A DNA stretch of 32,000 bases, taken from Horticoccus luteus (GTDB taxonomy: Bacteria; Verrucomicrobiota; Verrucomicrobiia; Opitutales; Opitutaceae). Location: the NCBI RefSeq assembly GCF_019464535.1, contig NZ_CP080507.1, positions 3,390,001 through 3,422,000 on the forward strand, in the 5' to 3' direction. Of this stretch, positions 9,001 to 29,296 are shown piece after piece. Each line of letters opens with the position of its first letter. The first letter of the stretch is position 1. Both the position numbers and the translations under genes were made by a program. Below the pieces are notes generated by a model. It was not told the origin of the DNA and did no database searches. It saw only the letters and a program-made list of their open reading frames with translations.

Positions 9001-12000
9001 CGATGCCGATTCGATACGTGTTGCCCGTGACACCGGCGTGCGTCGAGGTGCCGGTGTTCATCTCAATCAGGGCTGTCGCGTCGATGCCAATGGGGCCAAG
9101 CGCCAGCGAAGCTGTGGTAGAAATGCTCAGCGCGAACACGACGCCTTCCGATTCAGTATTGAGGAAAGCCGCCGCTCCCTGCACCGCCAGGATGCCAATC
9201 CCGATGTCGAGTTGCATGTCGAGATTCGCCTCCAGCCCCTCATCGCTAAAGATGAGTTCCAACCGCCCCTTGAATTCGATCAAATCGATCAAGGTGAGTT
9301 TGGCCCCTACCATGATTCGATAGGTGTGCGCGGCGATCGTCCCCGCTTTGAGACCATTGCCGATCAGGCTGCCGTCATCGGCTATGTTGAGTGTTTGGAT
9401 GCTTTGGGCCGTATCGGTGCTGTTGATCTCCATTTGGAACGTGCCCGTGACTTTGATCACACCGCCCAGATCCACCTGCCCGGCCAACTGGAGGGAGCCC
9501 ACTACGCCTTGGTCGTTGATCTTAAGATAGCCTGACGCGGTCAGTGTGCCAATGAAGAGCTCCGCAGTGGCATTGACCTGCAGCTCCAGTTGAAACGCTT
9601 CGAACTGAATACCAATATAGAAATCCCCGTGCAGCTTGATGAAGCCCGCGACCGTTAAATCGCCCGAACCGCGCAGGACCAGATAGGCTCCCGCGGGGCC
9701 TTCGCTCCCATCGATCTGCGGTGCTCCGGCCGTGATCGTAACGGTCGTATAGCTGACGTGTGCCTTCAGGGAATCGGGGACCGTGTAGACGAACGCCTCA
9801 CCCGTGGTGTTGAGGTAGAAGCCAAACGAAGCGTCAAAGTCCAGGACGCTCGCGAGCGTGAAGTTGGCATCCAGTTCCAGCTTCATGCCGACGCCCGCGC
9901 TTGTGATCGCCATCAAGCCGAGGGCGTGCGCGGAGAACAACTGCGTCCCGGCAATATTGATCGAAGCCGTCGCATCGATGAACATGACCATCTTCTCGTT
10001 GGTGAGCTCGAAGTCGAAAATGCCTTCGACGGAGAGCACGCCGAAAATGTCGACCTTGAGATGACCGCTCGCCGCAATGCGGAGGTTGTCGAAGTCGAGC
10101 ACGACGGGCTCGGCATCGTTGCCTGTAGGCACGGCGAAGCTGCCACCCGCAAAGCTGTGCTGAAAGTCGACGACCGCCAGGCCGCTGCTGATCGACCCGC
10201 CCAAATTCACTTCGACTTTGAAATCGGTGGCTTCGGCCGTGAGGCCGCTGATGCCGACCAAGCCTATAAAGCCCACCGATAGTTTACCTGCGAAATAGAA
10301 ACTCGGATCGGTGACATCCACCGATTGCATGAACATGAAGCCCGCATCCAGGTTGCTGAGCGCGATGCCCACCGCGGAACCGTTGGTGGTGTCATTCTCG
10401 TCGATCTTACCGCTGCCGTCGGTGTCGGAGAAATAAGGTCCGTTGAAGCCGACGAAGCCGTAAACGTCGTTCATCCCCAGGGTCATCGTGCGGACGGTCT
10501 TATGCGACCCGTCGGACAGAGTGACGTCCTGGGTCGGCCCCAGCGAGAATTCCATGCTGCCAGAAATTTGGATTATGCCAGCGATTTGGATTTCCGCGTA
10601 ACCGATCTTCAGACGGATGAGTTCGGTGCCAAAATCCAGGTCGACCGGATGCAGAGGATCGCCGGTGTCGAGGTGGTAAACGCCGTCCCGCGCTCCCGGG
10701 GCGGTTTCGTAGGTCGCCTTGAAGTCGATGCTCGGCGTCGGCAGCAGCATGGCCGCCACTGTCAGGCCGGGCACGTTGATATCGTTGAACTCGAGCACCA
10801 AATCGCGGCCGTCGAGTGTGATCACATCCCCCACTCCGACCAGTTGCACGCGATCAGTCGTGGCCTTGATCGCCATATATTTCACCGGCGAGGCGCCGTT
10901 GGGAATGACCGTCGGCGTCATGATCGCGATGCCGAGATTCAAGTTTTCCAAACTTAGCCCGATCGCGTCTGAGTTGACGGTGTCGTTGCTGTCGATGACC
11001 CCGTCATTGTTCGTATCGGACTTGTAGGGTCCGTTCAGGCCGACGAAGCCGTAAACCTGGGAGGCTCCAATCGTCATGAACTCAACCTCCTGCGTGAACG
11101 AGTGCCCAAAGCCATCGTTCACCGTGACGGTTTGCGTCGGGCCTTTCACGAAGGCGAATGAACCGCGCAAGTAGATGAAGCCCGCGACCTGCAACGTCGC
11201 CATGCTCGTGGCGAGCTTTAGAATCCGGGAATCGAAATCGAGATAGATGGGGTCGCCGCCGGTGCCGACCTGCAGCCCGGCCGGTTCTCCGATCAAGCCA
11301 TCGCCGTCGGAATCGACGCCGGCCGCTTCCGCCGGGAAGCTCGCCTTGAAGTCGATGAACGGCGAGATCGGCGAGGTAATCGAGCTGCCGTTGACCTCGA
11401 CGTCGACGTCCTTCAACTCGAATTTGAAAATGTCGCCGCCACCCACGAACGCCACGCTGCTTGCGGTCGCCCGCAACGCGTAGAACTTGGGTGTATATTT
11501 GGCCAGTTGCGCCGGGACGATCGTCGGTTCGAGGATCGCGAGCGCAAAGTTGAAGTCGTCGATCGCAAAGCCGATGGCCGAATCGCTTTTGCTATCGAAT
11601 TCGGTGATGCGGTGGTCGCCATCGGAATCGGTCCAATACGGGCCACCGATGCCGACGAACGCCCGCACGTGGGACGCCCCGAGCGTGATCGTCGACATTT
11701 CAATATTGTCGAACTCCGTTGGCAGGCCGAGCGAATCCGCGATATCGCTGCTTACACCGGTATTTATCGTGGTGCGGTAAGCCGGCCCTTTGAGGAACGA
11801 AAACCCACCGTAAACTTCGACGAAACTCGCGAGACGTATCTCGGCGTAGCCAACCGTGAGGCCAATGCGTTGCTGCCCGTCGAACGCCAGGTAGACCGGA
11901 TCCCCTCCCGTTTCGACCTTTAGCCCGAGAGGATCAGTGTCGTTGGCGGGGAAGCTCGATTGAAAATTGATGACGGGCGCCCAGCCGGTTCCTTTGGCGA

Positions 12001-15000
12001 AGCTCCATTCGTCGCCGTAATTCACTTCGACGGTGATGTCTTCGGCGCGGACTGTGAACCAATCGCCGAAGCCATAGGTGCCGACTTCCGCCGCCGTAAT
12101 CTTCAGCGCATACATTCGCGGGACGTCGATGCCCAAGACCGATTCGGCGTTAAAGATGCCCAAGCCCACGTCGACATCGCGCATGCCGAAGCCGATGAGA
12201 TCTTGATCCGCAAAGTCCTTGGAAAAGTCGGGGGTGCCGTAGCCGATGAAGACGCTGACGTTCGATGCGCCAATAGTGATAGCGCTGACGGCGACGTTGT
12301 GCAGCGTCGCGAGATCGCTGGAGAAGTCGGGTTTCAGGAAAGCGGGCAGCTTTATAATCTGATCCAGCAAAGCGCTGAGCGAGTCGCCCGCGAGATCCGT
12401 GAGATTGCCCGGGAAACCGGTGGCAACGTCGACTTCGTGCCGATCGCCAAAATTGAAGGCGAAGTCGCCTTGCAGATGCACAAACCCTCCGAGGTTCAAC
12501 GTCAAATCCGGTATCTCCAACAGCCCGGTGAGCGAGAACCCAAAGTCGGGATCAAATCCGATGGAAAGATTGAGGTTCTTGAGGAAGTCGAATGCGCCCT
12601 TCAAGAAATCGAGCGAGTCCGGCAAATCGCCCAAAAGATCGCCCAAGCCTGCCAGGCTCAGTCGCGGCAACCCGCCCAGATCCAAAGAGAACGAAAAACT
12701 GAAGCTGCCGCTGATGGTGAAGAGCCCGAGCAAACCGAGGTTACCGAGTCCAATATCCAACGAAAGCAGGTTCGTATTGAAATCGATGTCCAGGTTCAGG
12801 CCCGGCAGCGAGAAACTGAGTCCGCCAAACGAGGAGAAATCGACATAGAATCCCGGCAGTTTGCCGACATTCAGAGAGAAGGAGATATCGAAGGCGCTCA
12901 GGCTCAGCCAGTCCGAGATGTCAAAGGATCCCAGACCCGGAATATTGGCCACGCCCACCAATGCCGCCGAGCCCACGTGCGCGGTAAACGCGTAGAATTG
13001 CATGTTGGTGATGTTCACCACGCCGCCGAGCGACGGCGTCACAATGGCCAACGCGAAACTCAGGTCGCCGATCGCCAGACCCAGCGCTCCGCTGGCGACG
13101 TGCCCGCCAATGTTATCCGTCCAATATGGCCCGCCGATGCCCGCGAACGCGTAAACATGGGAGGCAGAGATCGTGAGGACTTCCGCGGCCGCTTGCACCA
13201 CGATCGGACCGGCATGGAAATCGACCAGCGAAATGGTCTGCTTCTCAAACGCGAACGCGCCTTGCACGCTGACGAATTGCGAGAGCGTCAGGCGCGCGTA
13301 GGTGGTTTGCGCCAGAATCCGGCTGTTTGTATAGTCGATTACGACGGTGTTTGCCCCGATGGTAAGTTGCAGCCCGGCCGGATCGGTGCCGTTGGCCGGG
13401 AAGCTGGTGGCAAAATTCACCGCGGTGCCGAGCGGACCCGTGTTCACCTCGACGGTGATGTCTTGGATCGTGAGATCGAACAAATCGGCACCGAAGCCGA
13501 CGAACCCGATCTGCGTAGCCGTGGCTTTCATCGCCACATAGGTCTGATTCCCCACCACCGTCTTCATCACGACCAACGCCAGATTAAGATCGTCGATAAC
13601 AAAACCAACCGCGGCATCATTTACTGTGCCGTCCGCGTTGCGGTAAGGGCCATCTACGCCCACGAACGCCTCCGCATTTTCAATGACGAGCGTGAGAGTG
13701 TTTACCGGCACGTCATGCAGCGTGCCCAGCGTGCCGCCCACGATGTCGACGTTGGCTTTCTCCCCCTGCGAGAAGGCCACGTCGGCCTTCAAATAGACAA
13801 ACCCTGCCACGTTGAGGGTCGCATCCTCCACCGAGCCGCCGATGACGGCTGTCGTGAAATCCAGCACCACCGACGCACCGCCCGTCCGAATTTCGAGGCC
13901 GGGAGGGCCCACGCTATTCGGGAAACTGGTGGCGAAGTTGATTACCGCGCCCAACGGGTTGTTGGATTGATTAAGCTGAGCGGTGATGTTTCCGGCCGAA
14001 AGCTGGAAGACGTCGGGATCGAAACCATAGAGCGCGACCGACGCCGCGGACAACTTCATCGCCGTATAGGTAAAACCGCCGGCCTTGATCTGCGTGAGAC
14101 CGAAACTCACACCCTCAACTCCGAACCCGTAAAGAGTGTCAGCCTGCTGGGCGAATGTTTTGGCGGGGTCGATCTGCCCATCGATATACCCGACAAACGC
14201 ACTGATATCGCTCCCTCCGACGCTGAAACCATCCGCCGCACCCAACGGGAGCGAGAGGCTGGACTTAAGCGCAGTCGCACCATACGAAGCCTTTTCGAAG
14301 CCGATGCCGCCCCGGAAGTAAAAGAACCGATAGACCGTCAGCACGGCTTCGCCGGCGAAGATTCCCAAACGTTCACCGGAAGTGTAATCGAGCGTCACAT
14401 CGTCGCCCCCGGTGCGGACGGTCAGCCCGCCGTCTGCGAAACTCTTGGTGAAATCGAGTGCCTTGCCCTGCAAGGTGCTTTGGTTGACCTCCACATCCAC
14501 ATCAGTCGCGGAGATCTGCATGATCTCGTCGTCGATGCCGTAGATTTTCATCGTATCGGCGTGCGCTTTGACCGCGGTGTAAGTCTGCCCGCCGGCCTTG
14601 ATTTGCACGACCGCAAAGGAAACCCCTTCGACTCCAAATCCGTAGAGATTATCCTTCTGTTCCTCAAAGCTCTTCGTGGAATCAATTGCGGTCGTGGCAT
14701 AACCCACGAACGCACTGATATTGCTGCCTCCAATGGTAAACCCGCTTCCACTTCCGATGATCGGCAGCCCGTTGTTGAGCGAATTCGCCGACACCGCGAA
14801 CTTCTCGAAACCCAAGCTGCCGCGGAAGTAGACGAAACGATAAATGGTCAGCAAAGCCTCGCCGGTAAATATCCCCAGCCGTTCGCCCGCATCGTAATTG
14901 ATTACCACATCGTCGCCGCCGGTGCGGACCGTGAGACCGGCGGTCCCAAAGCTGGCGCCGAAATCGAGACCTTTGCCGGCCACGGTGCTTTGGTTGACCT

Positions 15001-18000: not shown

Positions 18001-21000
18001 CCTCGATAGGATCGGTGCTAAAATCGATTACGTTGGCGGAGGCGTCGTCGAGAAGGCCGAGCTGGGTGTTGATTTCGACTTCGATGGAATCAGCTGAAAG
18101 CGTGAGACCAGCGACACCGACGAAGCCGACCGAATCCGCGGTCGCATGAAGCGCGAGCCAACGCGAGGCAGTGTCCGTGGCGTTGGCGACCTTCTCGGTG
18201 AAGATGCCCAACGCAAAGTCGACGCCGGTTAAACTGAGTCCGAGCTTACCCGGCGTTCCGCCATTGATACCGGCGAACGCCGAGAGTCCGCTGCCGCCAA
18301 TCGTCATGGCTCGCACATCGACTTCGGTGTCGTCCGCCAGTTTGACTGTGGTCGCGGCCTCGCGGATCGCGAGCGACCCGCTGACCTCGAAGAAGTCGCT
18401 CACGCGCAGGAGAATGTCGCCGCTGAGTTCCAATAGTTGGCCAACATTGCCCGCCATCGTCAGGTCGATCGTTGTGCCGTCGCCCGTCAGCACGCTTAAC
18501 GCGTCGGTGTGGTAATCAATCACCTTCGAATCGGCGTCGTCGCTGGGGGATACGCCTGACACGCGATTGACGGAGAGTGCGATGTTCGACGCGGTGATCG
18601 CGAAATCCGGAATGCCGACCAGACCAATGCTCGCGGCCGTCGCCGTCAGACTGGTCCACGCCAGGCCCGCGCCTCCGGTTTCAGAAGCATCTGGCGTGAA
18701 CAGAGCCAAGCCGAAGGTGAGGTCGTTGAGACTGAAGCCGACCGCTCCTGCGTTGCTGGCCGGACCGTTCACTCCCACAAACGTGGTGATGCCGTGCCCG
18801 CCGATCGTCAGCACCGTGGTGCTGACTGTCGTGCCGTCCGCGAGGGTGACCGCCTGCGGCTTGCTTTCGATCGCAATGCTACCGCTTAAGAACACGAAGT
18901 TCGCCACCGCAATTTCCGCTTGTCCCACCACGACGCGGACCAGGCGATCACTAAAATCGATGAGCACCGGCGATCCACCCGTCGGCACCGACAAACCACC
19001 GCCGGTCATCTGGCTGAAATCACCCGCGGTTACGAGGCCGGCCGGATCTTTAGCCACGTTTACTTCCACCGTGATGTTCGACGCTGTCAGCGTGAGCACG
19101 TCTTCGAAACCGATAAACGCCGCCGCGGCCGCCGAGATTTTGAGTGCCACATAGGTGACCGGTTGGGCGACGCCCGTTTGCTTCAGCAGTGCCAGGCCGA
19201 ACGTAACATCGCCGATCGCCAGACCCGCCGCGCCGCTCGTCGTATGGCCGCCGGCGCTGTCGGTCCAATATGGACCACCGGTGCCGGCAAAGAGATGCAA
19301 ATGCGAGCCGCCAATTGTCACCACATCAAGATCGCGCGAGCCGCCGTCGGACAACGACTCGACCACAGGGACGCCGCTTTCGAAGGCGAAGCCGCCGCGG
19401 AGATACACGAAGCCCGCAACTTGGATCAAGGCATCACCAATCGTCACGCTCGCAAACCCGTGATCGAAATCGATGGCGATAGGTGCGGCGCCCGTCTCCA
19501 CCGTCAATGCGCCGTCCGCGAGCCCCATCGCCGTGAAGTCGCCCGCGGTGACCGCGCCGGACGCGTTGCTGGCCTTGTTTACGCCCACCGAAATATCGGT
19601 CGCGGAAATTTTGAGTATATCGTCCAACCCCACGAGGCTGGCGCTCCCGGCGGTGAGCTTCATGGCAAAGTATTTGACCGGATCGGCCACCGCGCCGGAT
19701 TCGCGCAAGAGCGCCAATCCGACGCTGAGGTTGCCGATGGCGATGCCGATGGCCCCGTCCGCTGCCGGCGTGTCGTGCGTATCAACCACGCCATCGTTGT
19801 TGCTATCGACCCAATACGGCCCGCCCAAGCCGGCGAACACGTAGACGTTCGCTGCGCCGATCGTCAGAACATCGAGGTCGCGCGTGCCGCCCCCGGCCAG
19901 TGTTTCCGTAACGGATTGACCTTTCGTGAACGCGATCGCGCCGCGCACGTAGATGAAGCTGGAGACTTGGATGAGCGCATCGGCGACGCTCACCTGCAAA
20001 AGAGCCTCTGCATAATCAAGTGCGATGGTGCCCGCCCCCGTCGCAACGGCGAAGCCCGCGTTACTATTATATAGAGAGAGATTCACCGCGGCCACGGAAT
20101 CTGTGGTCGACGGGTCGGCGGCGCGATTGGCCTGCACGGTCACGCCTCGCAGCGTCACAGTCACCATCGACTCGACGCCCACTAACGCCGCTGATGCAGC
20201 GGAGACCTTGAGGGCGAGGTAGCGTGCGGTGTCGGCGGTGTCGACGGGCCGCATCGCCAGAACCGCGAAAGAAACATCGCCCAACGCCAAGCCGACCGCC
20301 GGACCCGCGAGCGGCGTATCATTGCCGTCGATGACGCCATTGGCATCTGAGTCGGACCAGTAGGGGCCGCCGACGCCGGCAAACACATGAACATTCGCGC
20401 CGCCGACTTGCAGCGTTTCGACGTTTTTGGTCGATCCATCGGTCAGGGTTACAGTCGTCGTCACGCCTTGGGTGAAAGCGAAGGAACCACTCAGGTAGAC
20501 GAAGTCGGCAATGCGGAGTGTTCCCCCGGTAATGCTCGCGCTCGTCGTGCGTTCGGAAAAGTCGAGCGTCACCGTTTCGCCGCCCACCGCGACTGCCAAG
20601 CCGCCCCCAGCCATTTGGGTGAAGTCGATTACGGGGGCCGGAGTCGCTTCGGTTGCAGCGGCGGAATGAGCGGTATTAATAGCGAGATCGACGCCGGTCG
20701 TGCTCAGTTCGACATCAGAGAAACCGACCAACGCCGCCGTGCCCGCGTGGGCCTTGAGGGCAACGTAGGTCGAAGTGTCAGCCTGGTCCGTGGGCGTAAA
20801 CCACGCAAAGGCGACGTTCACGCCGGACAACGCCAAGCCCACCGCGCCTTTGTCCGGAGTGTCGGCGCCATCGATCACACCATCGTGGTTAGAGTCCTGC
20901 CAATATGGCCCGCCGGTGCCGACGAACAGATTTACATTCGCCGCCGAAACCGTGATGGCCTCCACCTGTTTGGGCGAGCCATCAACGTTAACGGAGAGGA

Positions 21001-22012
21001 ACTGAGTGTAGGTCAGAGTAAACGTGCCCGACAGGTAGGCGAACTGCGAAACCTGCATTTCGCCGCTCACGGTAATGCTGGTCGGCACAAAGTAATCGGC
21101 GTTGAGCAGCTTGCTGAACGTATTCCGGTTCGCCGGTCCCGACAGAAACGCGGCCACCGCGCCGTCAGAAATATCGCGCACCACGAGCTTCACCCCGGTG
21201 CCGCTCTGGACGACTTGGAAATAGTGCGAGCCATCCGAGAATCCCGCGAGGCCGTCGGCATCCGCAAATTTGCCGGTGACGCCAGTTGCGGACAGAATGT
21301 CGAACGTATCGCCGGCCTGCGGCACATAGGCCGCGTCAACAGTGACCTCCAGTTTCCCGTTCAAGGTCGCCACGTTGCTGACGGAAATCTTCCCATAGTG
21401 CGTCGCATCTGTGATGCCGATGCTTACGGTATCGTCTGCGCCGAGCGCTAAGCTGCTCAAGGCGACTTCTCCGGTCGAACCATTCGCTTCAATCACCGAA
21501 CCTGCAGCGGGAGCGGCCGGATTCCGCTGCACCTGCGCTGACTCTAAGATATCGCTATTTGCGGGCGGCCCTTGGCTGCTATGGAGACTAGAGACTAAAA
21601 GAGACGCTGGAGAAACGACGTTTTCCGGCGCAGGCGATGCTTTCTCCGACACGGCGACCGTGGGCGCACTCACAGGAATCGGCCGTTGCGTTGGTTTTAC
21701 CGTCACCGTCGTGTGAGCTCGTCCGCGACCGACTTCCACCGCAGCCGGTGCGTCCGCTGCGTGACCTTCAGTGACAGGCGCCGATGGCAAAGCCGCTAGT
21801 GCAACGCCGTCAAAAAGGTCAGAGCCTTGGCTCGATTGCGCCGCATGACTGGTCAGCGCTGGCGCCAATTCAATCGCCCTATTGAGCGGGGTGAGCACGC
21901 GTTGCACGTTAGCCATCGGGGTCGCAGATAGCAAAACCCTGGCCTCAAGCGCCTCGATGAGGAACGCGGAAGCGGCGGGCTGACGTTCGAAGTTTGAACG
22001 GCGAGTGGGCAA
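1..22012 (-). CDS. Giant repeat-rich secreted or surface protein (adhesin-like). The 5' end is in the window and the 3' end lies beyond the left edge; at least 7,337 codons are visible.
   Basis: The reverse frame with codon first bases = 1 mod 3 has no stop from 22060 to base 2 (hand translation, end to end). It is bounded upstream by an in-frame TAA at 22061-22063. Every minus-strand ORF in the track between 1 and 22000 lies in one of the other two reverse frames. This ORF is absent from the track because it has no stop inside the window. Codons are GC3-rich and the protein sequence is coherent and modular. In-frame start candidates are TTG 22010-22012 (preferred), TTG 21932-21934 and ATG 21914-21916. 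Confidence 0.9.
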   Translation of the reverse strand, partial: MPTRRSNFERQPAASAFLIEALEARVLLSATPMANVQRVLTPLNRAIELAPALTSHAAQSSQGSDLFDGVALAALPSAPVTEGHAADAPAAVEVGRGRAHTTVTVKPTQRPIPVSAPTVAVSEKASPAPENVVSPASLLVSSLHSSQGPPANSDILESAQVQRNPAAPAAGSVIEANGSTGEVALSSLALGADDTVSIGITDATHYGKISVSNVATLNGKLEVTVDAAYVPQAGDTFDILSATGVTGKFADADGLAGFSDGSHYFQVVQSGTGVKLVVRDISDGAVAAFLSGPANRNTFSKLLNADYFVPTSITVSGEMQVSQFAYLSGTFTLTYTQFLSVNVDGSPKQVEAITVSAANVNLFVGTGGPYWQDSNHDGVIDGADTPDKGAVGLALSGVNVAFAWFTPTDQADTSTYVALKAHAGTAALVGFSDVELSTTGVDLAINTAHSAAATEATPAPVIDFTQMAGGGLAVAVGGETVTLDFSERTTSASITGGTLRIADFVYLSGSFAFTQGVTTTVTLTDGSTKNVETLQVGGANVHVFAGVGGPYWSDSDANGVIDGNDTPLAGPAVGLALGDVSFAVLAMRPVDTADTARYLALKVSAASAALVGVESMVTVTLRGVTVQANRAADPSTTDSVAAVNLSLYNSNAGFAVATGAGTIALDYAEALLQVSVADALIQVSSFIYVRGAIAFTKGQSVTETLAGGGTRDLDVLTIGAANVYVFAGLGGPYWVDSNNDGVVDTHDTPAADGAIGIAIGNLSVGLALLRESGAVADPVKYFAMKLTAGSASLVGLDDILKISATDISVGVNKASNASGAVTAGDFTAMGLADGALTVETGAAPIAIDFDHGFASVTIGDALIQVAGFVYLRGGFAFESGVPVVESLSDGGSRDLDVVTIGGSHLHLFAGTGGPYWTDSAGGHTTSGAAGLAIGDVTFGLALLKQTGVAQPVTYVALKISAAAAAFIGFEDVLTLTASNITVEVNVAKDPAGLVTAGDFSQMTGGGLSVPTGGSPVLIDFSDRLVRVVVGQAEIAVANFVFLSGSIAIESKPQAVTLADGTTVSTTVLTIGGHGITTFVGVNGPASNAGAVGFSLNDLTFGLALFTPDASETGGAGLAWTSLTATAASIGLVGIPDFAITASNIALSVNRVSGVSPSDDADSKVIDYHTDALSVLTGDGTTIDLTMAGNVGQLLELSGDILLRVSDFFEVSGSLAIREAATTVKLADDTEVDVRAMTIGGSGLSAFAGINGGTPGKLGLSLTGVDFALGIFTEKVANATDTASRWLALHATADSVGFVGVAGLTLSADSIEVEINTQLGLLDDASANVIDFSTDPIEVKTGSTTTMALEFAGADGDLLRATGNLKIDLFGFASLNGEMAIEKKATTVTLADADKTSVAVDMLTIGGHGLNAFVGINGGTPDAIGFEVTDLNFGLGLFTPTGAATSGDHRTWTTLGATAASITATGFENFGVTVAVTELELEINRASGTDASAVANTTVLDFSATPLDVLTGVGSTFAISTDGSRGQLTRASADVQLELFDFLYFRGRIGFEQTTPADELTLSDGTTATTESVLAITGSNVSAFVGYATGGVDADQSFSDQRSNLYGFGVEGVDFALLEVKAGGKNYTALKASAASVAVYGFDPSDFDLSFENVTVEVNQGGVKGAPTIDFATTFAADGGLSVRTGGNDAIFDYTGGERLGLFAETATLSISSFVYVRGSIGIEKATYEAGTLDNGNPIAGAGQGFAIGGSGVDLFVGYASGGVDRDQSFADQAANLYGFGVENVDFGMVKVTAGGQTYTAVSAHADTVKLYGIDPEIFQLSASDVNIEVNNSSVPGKALDFIKSFGADGLTVRTGGTPVSLTYDNTERLGVFAGSALLSIYRFVYFSGSLGFEKFTVAANTLDNGLPITSAGQGFTIGGSNISAFVGYASQPINPALSFADQADHLYGFGVEGVDFAVVQIQAAGATYTAVRAHADTVALYGIDAEYFQLSATDVNIEVNRSTVPTKALDFKTSFGTDGLTVRTGGDDVIIDYDAGERLGVFVGEALLTVYRFVYFRGSLGFEKFTTAAGTLDNGLPIAGSGQGFTIGGSNIDVFVGYATTAIDSAKTFDEQKDNLYGFGVEGVSFGMVQIEAGGQTYTAVKAHADTMKIYGIDPEIFQISASDVNLEVNQSTVVGKALDFGASFGTDGLTVRTGGDDIVLDYGAGERLGVFVGEALLTVYRFVYFRGSLGFEKFTTAAGTLDNGLPIAGSGQGFTIGGSNIDVFVGYATTTIDSAKTFDEQKDNLYGFGVEGVSFGMVQIQAGGQTYTAVKAHADTMKIYGIDPEIFQISASDVNLEVNQSTVAGKGLDFGASFGTAGLTVRTGGDDVVINYDAGERLGIFTGEALLTIYRFVYFRGSLGFEKFAVSANSLNNGLPIIGSGSGFTIGGSNISAFVGYATTAIDSTKSFEEQKDNLYGFGVEGVSFAVVQIKAGGQTYTAVKAHADTMKIYGIDDEIMQISATDVDVEVNQSTLQGKALDFTKSFADGGLTVRTGGDDVTLDYTSGERLGIFAGEAVLTVYRFFYFRGGIGFEKASYGATALKSSLSLPLGAADGFSVGGSDISAFVGYIDGQIDPAKTFAQQADTLYGFGVEGVSFGLTQIKAGGFTYTAMKLSAASVALYGFDPDVFQLSAGNITAQLNQSNNPLGAVINFATSFPNSVGPPGLEIRTGGASVVLDFTTAVIGGSVEDATLNVAGFVYLKADVAFSQGEKANVDIVGGTLGTLHDVPVNTLTLVIENAEAFVGVDGPYRNADGTVNDAAVGFVIDDLNLALVVMKTVVGNQTYVAMKATATQIGFVGFGADLFDLTIQDITVEVNTGPLGTAVNFATSFPANGTDPAGLQLTIGANTVVIDYTNSRILAQTTYARLTLSQFVSVQGAFAFEKQTISLVDFHAGPIVVQAAAEVLTISASHVYAFAGIGGPYWTDNIGGHVASGALGLAIGDLSFALAIVTPSLGGVVNITNMQFYAFTAHVGSAALVGVANIPGLGSFDISDWLSLSAFDISFSLNVGKLPGFYVDFSSFGGLSFSLPGLNLDIDFNTNLLSLDIGLGNLGLLGLFTISGSFSFSFSLDLGGLPRLSLAGLGDLLGDLPDSLDFLKGAFDFLKNLNLSIGFDPDFGFSLTGLLEIPDLTLNLGGFVHLQGDFAFNFGDRHEVDVATGFPGNLTDLAGDSLSALLDQIIKLPAFLKPDFSSDLATLHNVAVSAITIGASNVSVFIGYGTPDFSKDFADQDLIGFGMRDVDVGLGIFNAESVLGIDVPRMYALKITAAEVGTYGFGDWFTVRAEDITVEVNYGDEWSFAKGTGWAPVINFQSSFPANDTDPLGLKVETGGDPVYLAFDGQQRIGLTVGYAEIRLASFVEVYGGFSFLKGPAYRTTINTGVSSDIADSLGLPTEFDNIEMSTITLGASHVRAFVGIGGPYWTDSDGDHRITEFDSKSDSAIGFAIDDFNFALAILEPTIVPAQLAKYTPKFYALRATASSVAFVGGGDIFKFELKDVDVEVNGSSITSPISPFIDFKASFPAEAAGVDSDGDGLIGEPAGLQVGTGGDPIYLDFDSRILKLATSMATLQVAGFIYLRGSFAFVKGPTQTVTVNDGFGHSFTQEVEFMTIGASQVYGFVGLNGPYKSDTNNDGVIDSNDTVNSDAIGLSLENLNLGIAIMTPTVIPNGASPVKYMAIKATTDRVQLVGVGDVITLDGRDLVLEFNDINVPGLTVAAMLLPTPSIDFKATYETAPGARDGVYHLDTGDPLHPVDLDFGTELIRLKIGYAEIQIAGIIQISGSMEFSLGPTQDVTLSDGSHKTVRTMTLGMNDVYGFVGFNGPYFSDTDGSGKIDENDTTNGSAVGIALSNLDAGFMFMQSVDVTDPSFYFAGKLSVGFIGLVGISGLTAEATDFKVEVNLGGSISSGLAVVDFQHSFAGGSFAVPTGNDAEPVVLDFDNLRIAASGHLKVDIFGVLSVEGIFDFELTNEKMVMFIDATASINIAGTQLFSAHALGLMAITSAGVGMKLELDANFTLASVLDFDASFGFYLNTTGEAFVYTVPDSLKAHVSYTTVTITAGAPQIDGSEGPAGAYLVLRGSGDLTVAGFIKLHGDFYIGIQFEAFQLELQVNATAELFIGTLTASGYLKINDQGVVGSLQLAGQVDLGGVIKVTGTFQMEINSTDTAQSIQTLNIADDGSLIGNGLKAGTIAAHTYRIMVGAKLTLIDLIEFKGRLELIFSDEGLEANLDMQLDIGIGILAVQGAAAFLNTESEGVVFALSISTTASLALGPIGIDATALIEMNTGTSTHAGVTGNTYRIGIDGTMKLIAFTVAVQGSISVVDNVFELRIDHANLNFFNFITVGISGYIRSDGHFKINGTVSVSLDLGPLEFNAGMSLTFSDSGFEGHFWGSLDLSINMGLFKIHATLAGVDATIKLTEANASMNLRVTIVGISFSVGMSWSWGAPPIIATQVGDTLYLNMGPRGIYRDQPGKDLYADIKNESYLIKPNGDGGLSVSSLGVTSVYYGINTIIADGGDGNDSIQVAAGVTAKLVFDGGDGNDVFLIAGGASSSTIHGGAGKDQLVGGGVSGIHYYGDDGDDSFIGGSGDVVIDMGSGTNVISTGSGNDTLYLDGSSDTVSLGGGNNTIHVNLSGYAYIGGGAGFDRVIIDPLTSTEALNFNNHEFLYQNRTLDFDDNVDRVEITDSAATTTFKSAPNASWGATDLFIDAAGVLNVQNIIFKAPTALLSIHTAGGIDGTLNTQLAELSVVNNAPAGLLANLTVREADDLNIVDDNSTNGGLYTAAGAIDVQLAGREALLTLASGVLSTANGGGNIRLTADDMDFVSGDDKVSGLGSLTIRSTSPLQNYHIGGSAQSTYGRDYSTAGATGYLDLGMTDLSALQDGFSGIAIGHQASNVMMYVGDVEDETIGYFNFKARFTDAAVLVADHIVVQGDVQSTTDLTFVGGYMEVLRNNVRDPLGAPDSGVTAPRTHINITEQLVVSGWLRGGDLLEVTVNGTTGVNQIVGYGDEPNSITADRGSIFGSLNDGSRVIVTTSASIVSATAIFATGDDASVEMTAGTSLTIDEGAFVSVYGNRSTITLRSSTYLHLNPGGAISAGVQYTFNGDTPVPHLVGRDTTLTIAAGGELELAGSVSAGGAMTISAGATVHSFADYFDYLSGPTLVTVAYTQAIIDALNSGTISADLRAALATKHLTLGNDATAVSVDNFLPFSSLSSDQKAAVATMLGYTVYTDGAYYNATTGVFATVLVEGDLPAYQNSAINWGAAGAPAANATFASLTSAQKQAVATSLGYTTLNGPVFYNASAPVGRQVLTTFSQGESSDYSNAQIDWSTSGVVAPDASATFDDLTAAQRLVVIESLGYDLYKGAPLYYNANAAPGAEISATAADGYAPFAGVVYTNPNAAGSARYRLGFVEGVDYHNASVNWSHVVAPASNTAFADLSLVQKLVVARTLGYGTDDGYAFFNYNAVPGLKLVYDFSQGPVNDYRNADIYWGAAGAPAADAGFASLSLAQKTIVAAALGYTTYNSTVYFNAAASLGLALVAGFTQGQAPNFSYNQIDWGGVAAPADGTTFENLTPAQRLVVVQSLGYDVFGRPVYYNPSKAAGDQIREILVEGDDYHNADITWGTVDKPDDGAKFESLTTDQQAVVLAQTGYRLFKGVVYHNVVAAPADQFRLTFAAGTDYQNSEISWSDVDVPATGTAFDDLTADQQYRVLAQSGYTHYEGDVYYNAAASAGKQVVTTFVQGIDYTNDSLATAGTPAAGVNRWIVQDSDGHKYVIDARDYQNDGVFDEILIEAPHPLLGQRGYGFLLAGTLTTMQDNTDIVISGTEDAIIRGNINLLGANSDLVVQSDRWVYWEGQANVTGDITVLGGVSLDGTNLKQANADGVSVYVSATTTLNTTTPGTSVQIAGGQDVILEGAVVAGGKLGPTGVTFEGPDSTIFVNAGQRIYVDTVLAAAKSVTLTTTDQPSLDDAGLSVVLTTASGLSAAGYTSDNSGGSVTINAVGNVQVASTILSGGNKTQSFDTDGHLLSETTTWSDENSSVAISTSGQVYLGAMTRSLNGEDVEIGGTIRATQSITIIGGGNSDDIGVKMPGGARLATNNPDSTITIRSGQDAEINGLLIAGGEIVDHYDAAGDYLGSTTRNFSGASSITIEAGHQVRLGRDLTAGHLIDVRGGNDPGVPTPDNLWQGQGIVLGGNVHLATWQQNAIINLSAAGDMSVLAPAWVQELIAADFAQYVDGHLTSDVSFRLTMDLGTNTISGVVTLLKSATADNTGLGDLVADLQTAIEATDFKVLISPSGTPVIGSTAHVDSSQIKVRLDDGRLMLTGGSAMSVDAVTDGAANLLGFTQLSEGQASSNRPYVIDAGQLGSVANLGRPNAPNGKIYIAGWIRGYNAVNLYSGFAPDGGQNLEVSSSGVIETLSGNIVLNPGGQGVITGTFIARGHNADIIIAAKNTIEIKGVLTADRDIIITAGTTEKSGEVSVQTDPSAVFTSTGTAGRILITGQNDVVINNTVGRDNPNVSLIEITSTTGKLSVAAQAGRIETGAQLNFKGRQLDIDGHIISTRTTPATDDYEITFTATGSIALHGDFSFAGSVSVTSGGDVAAYDTRLLVRGAGERLTIISGGNVALGNVDPVAGTSTPMGATLEGNSAVAITAAGALQIGADASILSSGAASQIRLEAQSIVIVGRVIAGSDFDSDTTDVSWTGAGSNLYITSTQSVILGGNGLDANFAVVPAGGYLAASGAIQIQSGMDANGIGFAVLDLSSILLDRSGQGQWTDANTITGGSIDVRTTGDIQISGVVQAANIGSDLTLFSNSLVLIDNLVSAYDQVSITGGTDGTHLSIYINEFTFDANGDRLTGGTVDTAAGGSITLTGVDTILVKGVLGQLVDPSNPASAAKVSSLTINSTGGDVIITSTIDIRDHVAIEGGSINLVAGSHVYATASGADNYFHGRQSILLNGKVDLTHPESIIIGDTLVHLAADVIYVKGIVKVTATTGRMLINANSLLYVDGLVNSAGTLDMNAGVNTLQTRAQLEGTIATSDLHGGTIQVNGQGTVTAGGALKMRAGGDVILTADASVTGERTVLVPVYDTTTQSVTKVTGSTKVAIGEIVVPKSHLEYTTITEEIGTTQVKVGSEYQTMDISLEQIGYYNPNAPDGSKYKAILIEGVDYFNSQINWSNAGDEDHLGRTATSVTSDYKSDSYLDFTGLNDAQRQAVLNSTGYMRLYSFSYSNPVNHKTLSGVASTAPYTPSWASNSLVVYYLPLKGLKDKYILMPSGAQKDIANVVTSAPAQYLTGDTTADGRNDG
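210..490 (-). repeat. Further partial copies of the same ~65-aa repeat near the C-terminal end of the visible protein
   Basis: Translation reads ...LEQIGYYNPNAPDGSKYKAILIEGVDYFNSQINWSNAG... and ...YLDFTGLNDAQRQAVLNSTGYMRLYSFSYSNP.... It shows the same Q-[KR]-x-x-V-x-x-x-x-G-Y, Y-x-N and G-x-D-Y-x-N-x-x-I-x-W elements. Confidence 0.5.
4661..6287 (-). repeat. Eight tandem copies of an unrecognised ~65-aa repeat (one copy expanded to ~93 aa)
   Basis: Consensus read by eye: F-x-[DS]-L-[ST]-x-x-Q-[KRQ]-x-x-V-x-x-x-L-G-Y-x(4-6)-[YF]-[YF]-N-x(8-12)-F-x-x-G-x-D-Y-x-N-[AS]-x-I-x-W-x(4-6)-P-A. The (L/S/T)GY codons fall near 6233, 6041, 5834, 5556, 5353, 5153, 4958 and 4763, giving spacings of 192-207 bp and one of 278 bp. 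Confidence 0.75.
7973..8371 (-). repeat. RTX-type (hemolysin-type) Ca-binding nonapeptide region, a probable beta-roll
   Basis: Translation reads ADGGDGNDSIQV..FDGGDGNDVFLIAGG..HGGAGKDQLVGGG..YGDDGDDSFI. Five back-to-back 9-mers follow: GGSGDVVID / MGSGTNVIS / TGSGNDTLY / LDGSSDTVS / LGGGNNTIH. Then comes ..IGGGAGFDRVII. Confidence 0.7.
13802..17392 (-). repeat. Seven-unit tandem DNA array with a period of 510 bp (outer units 516-525 bp), encoding seven consecutive modules
   Basis: The N-terminal Phe codon of each unit sits at 17392, 16876, 16366, 15856, 15346, 14836 and 14326; the next, different module starts at 13801. The string ggtgctttggttgacctcgagattcacatcgctcgccgaaatctgga occurs at 14984 and again at 15494, with diverged versions at 13964, 14474, 16004 and 16514. 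The track's shadow ORFs 15079..15345 and 15589..15855 are near-identical and lie 510 bp apart. Confidence 0.9.
20318..20353 (-). other. Canonical 12-residue EF-hand-like (dockerin-like) Ca-binding loop DSDANGVIDGND, one of six such loops in the modules
   Basis: The loops follow a conserved G-G-P-Y-W. DSNHDGVIDGAD at 20861-20896. DSDANGVIDGND at 20318-20353. DSNNDGVVDTHD at 19772-19807. DSDGDHRITEFD at 11594-11629. DTNNDGVIDSND at 10982-11017. DTDGSGKIDEND at 10391-10426. Acidic or amide residues occupy positions 1, 3, 5, 9 and 12, Gly position 6, and an aliphatic residue position 8. Confidence 0.6.
21923..21961 (-). other. N-terminal LEPR-XLL-like signature, L-I-E-A-L-E-A-R-V-L-L-S-A
   Basis: Translating upstream of the first ATG gives (TTG)M-PTRRSNFERQPAASAFLIEALEARVLLSATP-M(ATG 21916). 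The arrangement is an Arg-rich stretch, then F-E, then L-E-x-R-x-L-L-S-A. This matches the N-terminal signature seen on very large Planctomycetota/Verrucomicrobiota proteins annotated as LEPR-XLL domain proteins. Confidence 0.6.
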
Positions 22013-22321: not shown

Positions 22322-23875
22322 TTATTTCCCAACCAAGTTTGCCGACGCGCCGCCGGCCAATGTCTCACTGATCGCCGTTAACAGCGCTTCAGCGGTAAAA
22401 GGCTTCGGAAGAAACGGCCCGTCGAAATGGAAATTCCCCAAACGCGAGCCGGCGTCCGGCAGGCCGCTGATTGCCAAAATTTTCGTGGCCGGACTCAACC
22501 GTTGCACGATTTGAGCCAAGGCGCACCCGTCGAGCTGGGGCATACCCAAATCGGTCACCACCAGTTTAACCTCCAAGCTGCGCGGAGCGAACAACGCCAC
22601 GGCCTCCGTGCCGTTGGCCGCGGCCAAGACCCGGTAGCCATGCCGCGTGAGCATCGCCGCCGTCACATCGCGCACGTTATCGTCGTCGTCCACCACGATG
22701 ATAAGCTCGTTCTGCCCGCGCGGCGCGGCGACCGACGTATCGCTTTGCTCTGTCAGTTCGCTGCCAGGCAAAGCCGGGAAATATACGCGAAACGTCGTGC
22801 CGCGACCCGGCTGGCTCTCCACCGTGACGATGCCGCCGTAGCTCTCCACAATCCCTCGCACGGTTGGCAGGCCCAAGCCGGTGCCGCGCCCTTCGGGCTT
22901 CGTGGTAAAAAACGGTTCCCATATCCGGCCGACCAGTTCCGGTGGGATGCCGGTGCCACTGTCAACCACCTCAAACACCAGATACGCGCCCATGCGGGTT
23001 CCGCGAATCGCGGCCGCGCTCATCTCATCCAGACGCTTATTCTGGGCGCGCACAACGAGCGTCCCGCCAGCGGGCATCGCATCGCGCGCGTTCACGCACA
23101 AATTAAGCAGCACTTGATGAAGCTGAGTGGGATTAATCTTCAGCGGCCAAAGATCGTTATCCGTCTGGTCTTCGATCCGGATGGCACTCGGGAAAGTCTG
23201 GCGCATCACGGCCAGCAGATCGCGTAAGAGGTGTCGCGGCTGCACCAAGTGCGGCTCTCCGGTCACCCCTTGAGCAAAACCGATGATTTGGCGCACCAAT
23301 CCAGCGCCACGCTCCACGCTGCGTTCGACATTCGCCAAGATCATTTCCTGCGTGGCATCGTGCACTTTTCCGCGCAGCAGCGGCACCGCGATCAGGATGG
23401 GTGCCAGGACGTTGTTAAAGTCGTGCGCAATACCCGCCGCCAGCATCCCGATATTTTCCAACCGCTGCACCCGTAACAATTGCTCTTCCGCCGCTCGCCG
23501 TTCCCGCACCTGCTTGGCGTTCTCGAGCGCCCGCCGGAGCGCGACGATCAACCGCTTAGGCCGATCTTTCAGCACGTAGTCCGTGGCCCCGTTGCGCATC
23601 GCCTCCACTGCCCGATCTTCGCCGATGGTGCCCGAAAAGAAGAGAAACGGCATGTCGGGGCACAAATTATGCGCCATCTCCAACGCCTCCAACCCGTTGA
23701 ACTGCACCAGATTGAAGTCCGACAAAACGGCGTCATAGCCGCCTGCCTCAAGCTCTGTTTCAAAGGCGTCGCGCGTATCCACCACCTGCACCGCACATTC
23801 GGGCCATTCGGTTCGTAATTGTTCCTGCGTCAATTCCGCGTCGCAGGCATCGTCCTCTAAATAAAGCAATCTCAT
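22322..23875 (-). CDS. Soluble hybrid histidine kinase, REC-HisKA-HATPase-REC
   Basis: Track ORF 22322..23932. The N-terminal receiver begins MRLLYLEDD, with acceptor context VLSDFNL and later YVLKD. H-box: GMLAAGIAHDFNNVL. N-box: LLNLCVNARDAM. G-boxes: DSGTGIP and GRGTGLGL. The C-terminal receiver reads IIVVDDDDNVR...VVTDLGMP...LAISG...LPKPF. No TM segment or other sensor domain is present. The track start at 23932 is a TTG. The ATG at 23873-23875 sits directly in front of the receiver fold, so I prefer it. Confidence 0.85.
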   Translation of the reverse strand: MRLLYLEDDACDAELTQEQLRTEWPECAVQVVDTRDAFETELEAGGYDAVLSDFNLVQFNGLEALEMAHNLCPDMPFLFFSGTIGEDRAVEAMRNGATDYVLKDRPKRLIVALRRALENAKQVRERRAAEEQLLRVQRLENIGMLAAGIAHDFNNVLAPILIAVPLLRGKVHDATQEMILANVERSVERGAGLVRQIIGFAQGVTGEPHLVQPRHLLRDLLAVMRQTFPSAIRIEDQTDNDLWPLKINPTQLHQVLLNLCVNARDAMPAGGTLVVRAQNKRLDEMSAAAIRGTRMGAYLVFEVVDSGTGIPPELVGRIWEPFFTTKPEGRGTGLGLPTVRGIVESYGGIVTVESQPGRGTTFRVYFPALPGSELTEQSDTSVAAPRGQNELIIVVDDDDNVRDVTAAMLTRHGYRVLAAANGTEAVALFAPRSLEVKLVVTDLGMPQLDGCALAQIVQRLSPATKILAISGLPDAGSRLGNFHFDGPFLPKPFTAEALLTAISETLAGGASANLVGK

Positions 23876-28503: not shown

Positions 28504-28511
28504 CGTCGCAT

Positions 28512-29291: not shown

Positions 29292-29296
29292 GGCTT

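What the first reader, a model, noticed from the sequence alone, without database searches (positions are those of the whole stretch)
10040..21043. About 20 copies of an unrecognised 170-200-aa module in Ca-loop and loop-less variants
The N-terminal ~3,700 residues form one module family, much larger than the usual ~90-110-aa Ig/cadherin/Calx-type adhesin repeats. Each copy has a conserved opening strand (F-V-Y-L-R-G-S-F-A-F-E), a TIGG..V.VF.G strand, a Y.ALKA.A.S..LVG strand, a D..VEVN strand and a DF..F...GL.V.TGG..V.LDF segment. In several copies (modules 1-3 and 19-21) the loop after F[AV]G is G-G-P-Y-W followed by a canonical 12-residue EF-hand/dockerin-like site. In others (modules 8-14 and 18) the aligned position holds VGYA..ID....F..Q.DNLYGFGVEGV with no such site. 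The same scaffold therefore seems to exist in Ca-dependent and Ca-independent versions along one polypeptide. I cannot assign the module to a named family by eye.
Basis: seen in the sequence. Interest (0 to 1): 0.7.

Follow-up and report, generated by a model that had tools for sequence, protein, structure and literature searches.

The report
Unclassified long-strand beta-sheet repeat module
A giant bacterial surface-type gene on the minus strand starts with 20 tandem copies of a ~170-residue all-beta module that no curated family or solved structure matches; some copies carry a calcium-site-like loop, and the module recurs in about 1,500 mostly giant, unnamed proteins from many phyla.

Summary
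The gene is on the minus strand: one stop-free frame runs from 22060 to the window edge, at least 7,353 aa, with a LEPR-XLL N-terminal motif. An iterated HMM finds exactly 20 contiguous modules at residues 340-4003 (window 21043-10052), with none elsewhere in the protein.

Pfam, NCBIfam and PDB sequence searches do not hit the module. An exhaustive HMM search of 1.84 billion representatives finds 1,470 relatives. Most are giant unnamed proteins, from Verrucomicrobiota, Planctomycetota, Pseudomonadota, Chlorobium and other groups.

AlphaFold2 is confident: pLDDT 93.5 for two modules and 86.1 for six. Each module has six long antiparallel strands and a small hairpin, joined to the next module by a tight turn. 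One sheet face is hydrophobic and the other polar. Foldseek finds only local likeness to large beta-barrels (TM 0.22 or less).

The strand 2-3 loop comes in at least four forms. Six modules (1-3, 18-20) carry a DxDxDGxIDxxD site, against 0.007 expected by chance.

My reading is an extended amphipathic beta-ribbon stalk of a giant exported protein, with optional calcium-stabilised loops. Calcium binding and function are untested. Two preprints describe similar predicted sheets, so I rate it a new variant of a known kind.

The parts
2..22012 (-). Giant ORF of at least 7,337 aa counted from the proposed TTG start at 22012. The frame is open from 22060. The 3' end lies beyond the window start.
   Evidence: No stop in minus frame 1 between 22063 and base 2. 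The start is inferred from the position of the LEPR-XLL motif relative to N-complete homologues.
21911..21964 (-). LEPR-XLL N-terminal motif (FLIEALEARVLLSATPM), residues 33-50 of the open frame.
   Evidence: NCBIfam NF012209 scores 19.3 bits against a cut-off of 17. 27 of 49 N-complete homologues have a similar motif.
21044..21910 (-). Pre-module N-terminal region, residues 51-339.
   Evidence: No module HMM hit. Its 'GDTFDIL...G.F...YF.VVQS...LVV' element recurs ahead of the arrays in P0018 and P0024 (by eye).
10052..21043 (-). Array of 20 contiguous modules, residues 340-4003.
   Evidence: Iterated HMM, domain E-values 1e-35 to 1e-65; alignment A1.
19412..21043 (-). Modules 1-3, Ca-loop type (GGPYW + DxDxDGxIDxxD).
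   Evidence: AF2 model of modules 2-3 has pLDDT 93.5.
20861..20896 (-). EF-like site DSNHDGVIDGAD (module 1).
20318..20353 (-). EF-like site DSDANGVIDGND (module 2).
   Evidence: It lies in the strand 2-3 loop of the model, where pLDDT is 84-86.
19772..19807 (-). EF-like site DSNNDGVVDTHD (module 3).
18899..19411 (-). Module 4, degenerate GGPYW loop without the 12-residue site.
17393..18898 (-). Modules 5-7, short-loop type (G-x-N-G-G/P). This is the commonest type in the family.
13802..17392 (-). Modules 8-14, LYGFG-type loop. Modules 9-13 are recently amplified: 510-bp period, 61-93% aa identity.
   Evidence: In the model of module 8 the loop holds a short helix.
13277..13801 (-). Module 15, intermediate loop (GVDGPYRNADGTVNDA).
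12485..13276 (-). Module 16, degenerate GGPYW loop, with the 82-aa insert at its end.
12485..12730 (-). 82-aa Leu/Gly/Phe/Pro-rich insert, residues 3111-3192, between module 16 and module 17.
   Evidence: Alignment columns 268-347 are occupied by this module only. It has no other copy in the protein.
11825..12484 (-). Module 17, LIGFG-type loop, with a ~45-aa insert between strands 1 and 2.
10052..11824 (-). Modules 18-20, Ca-loop type. Sites are at 11594-11629 (deviant, DSDGDHRITEFD), 10982-11017 and 10391-10426.

Best explanation
The region encodes the N-terminal 3,664 residues of a giant protein that is probably exported and belongs to the LEPR-XLL class.

It consists of 20 head-to-tail copies of one ~170-aa all-beta module. 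Each module supplies six long antiparallel strands of 13-20 residues, plus a small conserved hairpin in the long loop between strands 5 and 6. A three-residue turn joins strand 6 to strand 1 of the next module. The array is therefore predicted to be one continuous up-and-down beta-sheet of about 120 strands, not beads on a string.

Side chains alternate, so one face of the sheet is V/L/I/F and the other is S/T/D/N/E/K/G. This makes an amphipathic ribbon. Standard 4.8 A strand spacing would make it roughly 55-60 nm long if it is single-layered (inference).

The tip of the strand 2-3 hairpin tolerates insertions. In six modules at the two ends of the array it carries GGPYW plus a 12-residue DxDxDGxIDxxD site, which probably binds calcium once the protein is outside the cell and stiffens that edge. 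Other modules have shorter loops, or a helix-containing loop, on the same scaffold.

I infer that the array is a long, semi-rigid stalk or ribbon that presents the C-terminal half of the protein. Its hydrophobic face would be buried by curling, by pairing with a second copy, or by a hydrophobic partner.

Shown here: the gene, the modules, the family, the predicted secondary structure and strand order, the amphipathic pattern, and the motif. Inferred: export, calcium binding, overall 3-D shape, and function.
For: - Single stop-free frame of 7,353 codons.
- 20 modules by HMM, with 0-3 residues between them.
- In 150 homologues, 1,040 modules with a median spacing of 2 aa.
- AF2 gives pLDDT 93.5 and pTM 0.88 for modules 2-3, and pLDDT 86.1 and pTM 0.67 for modules 3-8. 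The strand plan is identical in every module, and identical for module 3 in both runs.
- Column-wise hydropathy over 661 modules alternates between about +3 to +4 and about -1 to -3 along each strand.
- Foldseek's best PDB hits are large antiparallel barrels (SlpA, LptD, SprA, autotransporters) and the ApoB100 beta-belt. TM is at most 0.22 and rmsd for the six-module model is 35-43 A, which points to a local meander that is not closed or compact.
- Six EF-like sites sit at one module offset, against 0.007 expected. The same loop carries such a site in 161 of 815 homologous modules, and 62 proteins mix site-bearing and site-free modules.
- LEPR-XLL motif. A sub-threshold RTX nonapeptide stretch lies downstream. 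Some homologues are named 'calcium-binding protein' by NCBI.
- A comparable layout is described for Chlorochromatium Cag_663/665: an N-terminal extended hydrophobic-faced sheet followed by a C-terminal beta-helix with cation sites (bioRxiv 10.64898/2026.03.19.712371).
Against: - I could not read the model coordinates. 'Single continuous sheet' rests on DSSP strings, turn lengths and Foldseek scores. A two-layer (laminated) packing or a curled cleft is not excluded.
- The AF2 alignments were shallow (28 and 36 rows), and depth was uneven in the six-module run.
- A large exposed hydrophobic face is physically awkward for a monomer.
- No EF-hand, dockerin or RTX HMM hits the modules, and the model shows no helices flanking the site.
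- Export is inferred. The C-terminus and any secretion signal lie outside the window. No secretion genes are among the neighbours upstream of the gene's start at 22.3-32 kb, and the side beyond its 3' end is outside the window.
- Mean-field DCA on the modules gave mixed signals dominated by indels and subfamily structure.
Confidence: 0.55

Rival explanations
1. The hydrophobic face is the working surface. The ribbon would be a lipid- or membrane-binding belt or groove that shields acyl chains or lies on another cell's membrane. It would work like the ApoB100 beta-belt or the repeating beta-groove lipid-bridge proteins (TamB/AsmA, VPS13), but outside the cell.
For: One face of every strand is strongly hydrophobic across 661 modules. 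ApoB100 is among the Foldseek hits, at E 7e-3. The Chlorochromatium preprint proposes membrane or protein interaction for a similar hydrophobic cleft.
Against: No AsmA, TamB or DUF490 HMM hit. The module has six strands and no cross-over element, unlike the five-strand-plus-loop beta-groove unit. The ApoB match has probability 0.06 and TM 0.06. No lipid-related neighbours.
Confidence: 0.15
2. The array closes on itself, or inserts into a target membrane, to form a very large beta-barrel or pore. That would be a single-chain counterpart of gasdermin/MACPF-type giant barrels, with about 120 strands.
For: All top Foldseek hits are membrane beta-barrels with long strands, best E 1e-6 and probability 0.98. 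The strands are amphipathic.
Against: TM is at most 0.22, and rmsd is 35-43 A against 26- to 36-strand barrels, so 36 strands show no closure. The hydrophobic stripe runs the full 13-20 residues, longer than a membrane span. Array length varies from 3 to 32 modules among homologues, which does not fit a fixed ring size.
Confidence: 0.05
3. It is an ordinary adhesin extender made of Ig-like, cadherin-like or Calx-beta-like beta-sandwich domains that have diverged too far for HMMs, with two ~85-aa domains per 'module'.
For: Giant Ca-binding surface proteins usually use such domains (general knowledge). The Ca-site motif resembles those between or within such domains. There is a noise-level SdrD_B hit at E 0.57 over the Ca loop.
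Against: hhalign finds no relation between the two module halves, probability 0.6%. The strands are 13-20 residues, about twice Ig-strand length, and strand 6 pairs with the next module's strand 1. No beta-sandwich entries appear among the top 50 Foldseek hits. No Pfam or NCBIfam hit even at E 10.
Confidence: 0.04

Closest known systems
[quoted passage not shown]
   Same: Giant protein. The N-terminal thousands of residues are predicted as an extended repetitive beta-sheet with a hydrophobic surface and no match to solved structures. The C-terminal part is repetitive with cation sites. A Chlorobium MAG protein (P0178) carries 20 of the present modules and the same C-terminal ~85-aa repeats as the window protein.
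   Different: Sequence homology between this module and Cag_663/665 could not be tested; the genome scan did not return that genome. Those proteins are 20,000-27,000 aa and have HK97-like protrusions. No EF-like loop variants are described in the passages I read.
'Antiparallel beta-helix' tubules of Omnitrophota giant proteins (bioRxiv 10.1101/2023.11.21.568195)
   Same: A long single-chain antiparallel beta-sheet built from unannotated repeats in PVC-superphylum giant proteins. The Dockerin-type examples have small external beta-hairpins and EF-hand/dockerin motifs.
   Different: Those are described as hollow closed tubules of about 1,500 aa. Foldseek scores for my six-module model give no sign of closure. 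Homology was not tested.
Calcium-rigidified extender regions of giant RTX adhesins (LapA, MpIBP, SiiE; from general knowledge)
   Same: Tens of tandem beta modules form a long stalk in an exported giant protein. Acidic calcium sites are thought to act only outside the cell. RTX-like nonapeptides lie downstream.
   Different: Those extenders are separate ~100-aa Ig-like sandwiches with calcium between domains. Here the sheet is predicted to run through module boundaries, the site is at a hairpin tip, and most modules lack it.
Outer-membrane beta-barrels and the ApoB100 beta-belt (Foldseek hits)
   Same: Local geometry: an up-and-down meander of long amphipathic antiparallel strands.
   Different: No global superposition, with TM at most 0.22. 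No closure. No OMP family HMM hit.
EF-hand / dockerin / integrin FG-GAP-type calcium loops
   Same: The 12-residue pattern D-x-[DN]-x-[DN]-G-x-I-D-x-x-D, with an acidic residue at position 12.
   Different: No flanking helices in the model. The site lies inside a beta-hairpin loop after a conserved GGPYW. No HMM match.

Membership tests
LEPR-XLL giant proteins (NCBIfam NF012209) | N-terminal ~24-aa motif LE(P)R.LLS above the curated cut-off | tested here: met
   19.3 bits against a cut-off of 17, residues 33-50.
LEPR-XLL giant proteins (NCBIfam NF012209) | Very large protein (thousands of residues) | tested here: met
   At least 7,337 aa within the window.
EF-hand / dockerin calcium site | 12-residue loop with ligand positions 1, 3, 5, 9, 12, Gly at 6 and a hydrophobic residue at 8 | tested here: met
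   Five canonical sites and one deviant site at the same module offset; 0.007 expected by shuffling.
EF-hand / dockerin calcium site | Helix-loop-helix context and a match to family HMMs | tested here: not met
   DSSP shows coil with two beta-bridges around the site. No EF-hand or dockerin Pfam hit at E up to 10.
EF-hand / dockerin calcium site | Actual calcium binding | not testable with these tools
   Needs ITC, DSF or a structure with ions.
RTX nonapeptide beta-roll | GGxGxDxUx repeats matching PF00353 | tested here: not met
   No match inside the modules. There is a sub-threshold hit (21.7 bits against 23) at residues ~4645-4678, outside the finding.
Ig-like / cadherin / Calx-beta adhesin repeats | ~90-110-aa beta-sandwich domain matching a family HMM | tested here: not met
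   No Pfam or NCBIfam hit. The module halves are unrelated. The strands are 13-20 residues long.
Repeating beta-groove / AsmA-like lipid-bridge proteins | Units of five strands plus a cross-over loop; AsmA, TamB or DUF490 HMM match | tested here: not met
   Six strands per unit with hairpin connections. No HMM hit.
Repeating beta-groove / AsmA-like lipid-bridge proteins | Hydrophobic concave face | tested here: inconclusive
   One face is hydrophobic. Curvature could not be read without coordinates.
Outer-membrane beta-barrel | Closed barrel that superposes globally on known OMPs | tested here: not met
   TM at most 0.22; rmsd 15-43 A.
RHS / YD-repeat shell | RHS/YD repeat HMM match | tested here: not met
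   No such Pfam or NCBIfam hit. No Tc or teneurin entries in the top 50 Foldseek hits.
Cag_663/665-type extended hydrophobic beta-sheet (preprint) | Extended repetitive beta-sheet with one hydrophobic face in the N-terminal half of a giant protein | tested here: met
   The 'extended' shape is inferred from Foldseek rmsd.
Cag_663/665-type extended hydrophobic beta-sheet (preprint) | Sequence homology to Cag_663/665 | not testable with these tools

The most novel reading that the evidence does not exclude
The module defines a large, uncurated superfamily of single-chain amphipathic beta-ribbons. Their hydrophobic face would be functional: an extracellular belt or groove that binds lipid, membranes or another ribbon. 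That would make it a bacterial surface counterpart of the ApoB beta-belt or the repeating beta-groove bridges, with calcium-switchable edge loops. It would also unite the unexplained N-terminal sheets of the Chlorochromatium and other giant proteins under one family.
Probability: 0.15. Interest if true: 0.8.

Novelty: new variant of a known kind. Interest (0 to 1): 0.55.

Why it matters
Giant LEPR-XLL-type proteins are among the largest genes in Verrucomicrobiota, Planctomycetota and other phyla, and they are annotated almost entirely as 'hypothetical'.

This module accounts for half of one such protein. It recurs in about 1,470 cluster representatives, yet it has no Pfam or NCBIfam model and no structural relative in the PDB. 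A curated model would annotate many kilobases of dark sequence per genome.

The predicted architecture is a covalently continuous amphipathic sheet of more than 100 long strands, with interchangeable edge loops. That is unusual for adhesin stalks. It raises a concrete, testable question: what buries the hydrophobic face? It may also connect to the giant symbiosis proteins of Chlorochromatium.

Tried and rejected
- The ORF listing misses the gene because it runs off the window. Plus-strand ORFs such as 11960-15130 are antisense shadows.
- The word-index homologue search with the profile found only one protein, and the search with the whole array timed out. The exhaustive search was needed.
- Three-module sliding windows (A2) and single-module padding (A5) gave staggered or piled-up MAFFT alignments. 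I did not use them for prediction.
- Mean-field DCA on 500-661 modules was dominated by indel and subfamily couplings. It showed some strand 2-3, 1-2, 3-4 and 4-5 antiparallel ladders, but also inconsistent pairs, so I did not rely on it.
- The precomputed PF24402 (iHKD) tag on homologue P0161 is a borderline hit unrelated to the module (28.4 bits against 27).
- Exact-match searches for the window's first 50 bases in genome and metagenome contigs found nothing. The only exact neighbour-gene match is a 2-kb Logan contig. The source organism and the gene's 3' end remain unknown.
- The profile A1 is too divergent for the search for related loci.
- A genome scan with the Chlorobium homologue returned three loci with no modules.
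- P0002, the best-scoring homologue, is only about 28% identical and not collinear, so it is not an orthologue.
Full report
**1. What is there**

The plus-strand ORF list shows only fragments across 10-21 kb. A stop-codon map shows why. Minus frame 1 has no stop codon from 22060 down to base 2. That is 7,353 codons in roughly 60% G+C DNA, and the ORF runs off the window.

Residue k of this frame starts at 22060-3(k-1). NCBIfam recognises a LEPR-XLL motif at residues 33-50 (19.3 bits, cut-off 17). By analogy with N-complete homologues, the start is probably the TTG at 22012 (inference). The plus-strand ORFs inside the region, such as 11960-15130, are antisense shadows.

**2. The repeat**

A phmmer/hmmsearch iteration seeded with one copy converges after two rounds on 20 contiguous modules. 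They cover residues 340-4003, window 21043-10052, with domain E-values of 1e-35 to 1e-65 and 0-6 residues between hits. A maximally relaxed search finds no further copies in the other 3,700 residues.

Module lengths are 164-220 aa. Module 16 is 264 aa because of an 82-aa insert at its end. Pairwise identity is 22-49% outside the recently amplified block. Within that block, modules 9-13 are 61-93% identical and have a 510-bp DNA period.

The two halves of a module are unrelated (hhalign probability 0.6%), so the ~170-aa unit is not a pair of smaller domains. The count is 20 rather than 21.

**3. Loop variants**

I see at least four forms:

- **Ca-type.** GGPYW followed by D-x-[DN]-x-[DNS]-G-x-I-D-x-x-D, in modules 1, 2, 3, 19 and 20. 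Module 18 has a deviant DSDGDHRITEFD.
- **Degenerate.** GGPYW without the site, in modules 4 and 16.
- **Short.** A G-x-N-G-G/P turn, in modules 5-7.
- **LYGFG-type.** VGYA..ID....F..Q..NLYGFG in modules 8-14, with a related form in module 17. Module 15 is intermediate.

The six EF-like sites occupy the same module offset. Shuffling the 3,664 residues gives 0.007 such sites on average.

**4. Is it a known family?**

No Pfam or NCBIfam model hits the modules. I tested the whole protein at E up to 1, single modules of four loop types at E up to 10, and ten homologues. A profile of the 20 modules and a phmmer of the whole array find nothing among 177,635 PDB sequences.

The family is nevertheless large. 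An exhaustive HMM search of 1.84 billion cluster representatives gives 1,470 proteins at E up to 1e-3 and 481 at E up to 1e-30. Many of them are 2,000-7,900 aa.

In the best 150 proteins I count 1,040 modules, up to 32 per protein, with a median gap of 2 aa between them. 27 of 49 N-complete proteins have a LEPR-like motif.

Source names, where present, are 'hypothetical protein', 'LEPR-XLL domain-containing protein' or 'calcium-binding protein'. The sources include:

- Opitutales, Akkermansiaceae and other Verrucomicrobiota
- Planctomycetaceae
- Pseudacidovorax intermedius (WP_043112418.1) and other Betaproteobacteria
- Magnetococcales
- a Chlorobium MAG
- Gemmatimonas, Anaerolineaceae and Terriglobia

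The loop polymorphism is a family trait. Of 815 full modules, 161 carry an EF-like site in that loop, 93 carry GPYW without it, 19 are LYGFG-like and 542 have short or other loops. 62 proteins mix site-bearing and site-free modules.

**5. Predicted structure**

I ran two AlphaFold2 jobs:

- **Modules 2-3** (364 aa), with 28 rows of window modules and homologue fragments: mean pLDDT 93.5, pTM 0.88.
- **Modules 3-8** (1,027 aa, 36 rows, uneven depth): pLDDT 86.1, pTM 0.67.

Both runs give the same plan for every module:

- Strand 1 (about residues 2-20), a 4-residue turn, then strand 2 (25-44).
- The variable loop.
- Strand 3 (70-86), strand 4 (94-108) and strand 5 (114-129).
- A conserved ~38-residue loop (VIDF..SF...GL.V.TGG..V.LDF) with a short helix and a mini-hairpin.
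- Strand 6 (168-180), then a 3-residue turn into strand 1 of the next module.

Module 3 has the same elements in both runs. The variable loop measures about 25, 17, 7-9 and 16 residues in the four types; the 16-residue LYGFG loop contains a short helix. The scaffold itself is unchanged.

The EF-like site lies in coil closed by a beta-bridge and has no flanking helices.

Over 661 aligned modules, mean hydropathy alternates residue by residue along each strand, between about +3 to +4 (V/L/I/F) and -1 to -3 (S/T/D/N/E/K). One face of the sheet is therefore hydrophobic. This pattern supports beta-strands independently of AlphaFold.

**6. Fold comparison**

Foldseek against the PDB gives no hit at E up to 1e-3 for the two-module model. 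Its top hits are 12- to 16-strand barrels with TM 0.13-0.22.

The six-module model gets E down to 1e-6 against Deinococcus SlpA, LptD and SprA, and also lists the ApoB100 beta-belt at E 7e-3. TM is at most 0.15 and rmsd is 35-43 A.

I had no access to coordinates. A single-layer ribbon, a curled cleft or a two-layer 'laminated' packing cannot be told apart here, and this is the main gap in the analysis.

**7. Most likely mechanism**

Shown here:

- a real giant gene
- a 20-module array
- a confidently predicted continuous antiparallel sheet with an amphipathic pattern
- an insertion-tolerant hairpin tip that in six modules carries a canonical acidic 12-residue site

Inferred:

- The protein is exported. 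The grounds are the LEPR-XLL class, the downstream sub-threshold RTX nonapeptides at residues ~4645-4678 (which coincide with a 27-nt tandem repeat at 8042-8094), and the homologues named 'calcium-binding'.
- The sites bind calcium outside the cell and stiffen one edge.
- The array is a long stalk or ribbon, about 29 A per module if single-layered and so 55-60 nm in total.
- Its hydrophobic face is buried by curling, pairing or a partner.

Rival readings are a lipid or membrane belt (0.15), a giant barrel or pore (0.05) and diverged Ig-like domains (0.04).

**8. Relation to what is known**

Two preprints describe similar predicted objects.

- **Chlorochromatium** (bioRxiv 10.64898/2026.03.19.712371). 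[quoted passage not shown] The authors report no match to known structures.
- **Omnitrophota** (bioRxiv 10.1101/2023.11.21.568195). The giant proteins contain 'antiparallel beta-helix' tubules, and the Dockerin-type examples have external hairpins.

A Chlorobium MAG protein (P0178) has 20 of the present modules. It also has the same C-terminal ~85-aa 'F..L..Q..V...LGY...YYN' repeats as window residues 5266-5803. The whole architecture is therefore conserved across phyla.

I could not test homology to Cag_663/665 or to the Omnitrophota proteins. Literature searches found no description of this module itself.

**9. Verdict**

The calcium-dependence part is plausible but untested.

It is a new variant of a known kind, the repetitive beta stalk of a giant calcium-associated surface protein. 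Its predicted fold is unusual and uncurated. Interest 0.55.

Noticed in passing
window 11960-15130 (+) and other plus-strand ORFs between 9.7 and 21.5 kb: Long plus-strand ORFs (up to 1,056 aa) lie antisense to the giant gene. They are shadow ORFs in G+C-rich repetitive coding DNA, not genes.
   Followed up: partly
window 8027-8128 (-), residues ~4645-4678; tandem repeat at 8042-8094: There is an RTX-like nonapeptide stretch (GGDGND..., PF00353 at 21.7 bits against a cut-off of 23). It coincides with a 27-nt tandem repeat found by TRF. This suggests a small beta-roll between the module array and the C-terminal half.
   Followed up: partly
window 4652-6265 (-), residues 5266-5803, plus a remnant at residues 7195-7229: A second repeat family: about eight copies of a ~85-aa unit (F..L...Q...V....LGY....YYN...G.DY.N..I.W). 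It has no Pfam hit. It is also present at the C-terminus of the Chlorobium MAG homologue P0178/P0013.
   Followed up: partly
window 12485-12730 (-), residues 3111-3192: An 82-aa Leu/Gly/Phe/Pro/Asp-rich insert (GLGNLGLLGLF...LPDSLDFLKGAFDFL...) lies between modules 16 and 17, and the protein has only this one copy. Similar 'LP.L'-rich segments precede the first module in homologue fragments P0001 and P0035.
   Followed up: no
window 14327-16876 (-), modules 9-13: This is a recently amplified block. Modules 11 and 12 are 93% identical in protein, with an exact 510-bp spacing. It points to ongoing expansion or gene conversion inside the array.
   Followed up: partly
window 8561-10051 (-), residues 4004-4500: A beta-rich, non-repetitive stretch follows module 20. 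It begins with a module-like strand (IFGVLSVEGIFDFE) but is not recognised by the module HMM. It may continue or cap the sheet.
   Followed up: partly
window 22322-32000: The neighbours upstream of the gene's start are a hybrid histidine kinase, a HAMP histidine kinase, a response regulator, a TonB-dependent receptor, a DUF4154/YfiR-like protein, coaX, coaBC, panC and panB. No secretion-system genes are visible on this side. The only exact public match to coaX is a 2-kb Logan contig (SRR34023387).
   Followed up: partly
L002 (JGI 3300045937, Ga0496538_1386, 41002-63371): This 22-kb stretch is called as 17 same-strand genes without Pfam hits, but about 40 module hits are spread over all three forward frames. 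It is a frameshift-fragmented giant gene of the same family.
   Followed up: partly
P0021 (MCI0496893.1): This homologue has seven modules, all of the Ca-loop type. It is labelled 'M10 family metallopeptidase C-terminal domain-containing protein' from a Thermoplasmata archaeon MAG. That may reflect bin contamination or lateral transfer.
   Followed up: no
window 1-32000, composition profile: GC skew is positive over 1-9 kb and turns negative from about 13 kb onward, although the same minus-strand gene covers 2-22012. This probably reflects the different amino-acid composition of the two halves rather than a replication feature.
   Followed up: no
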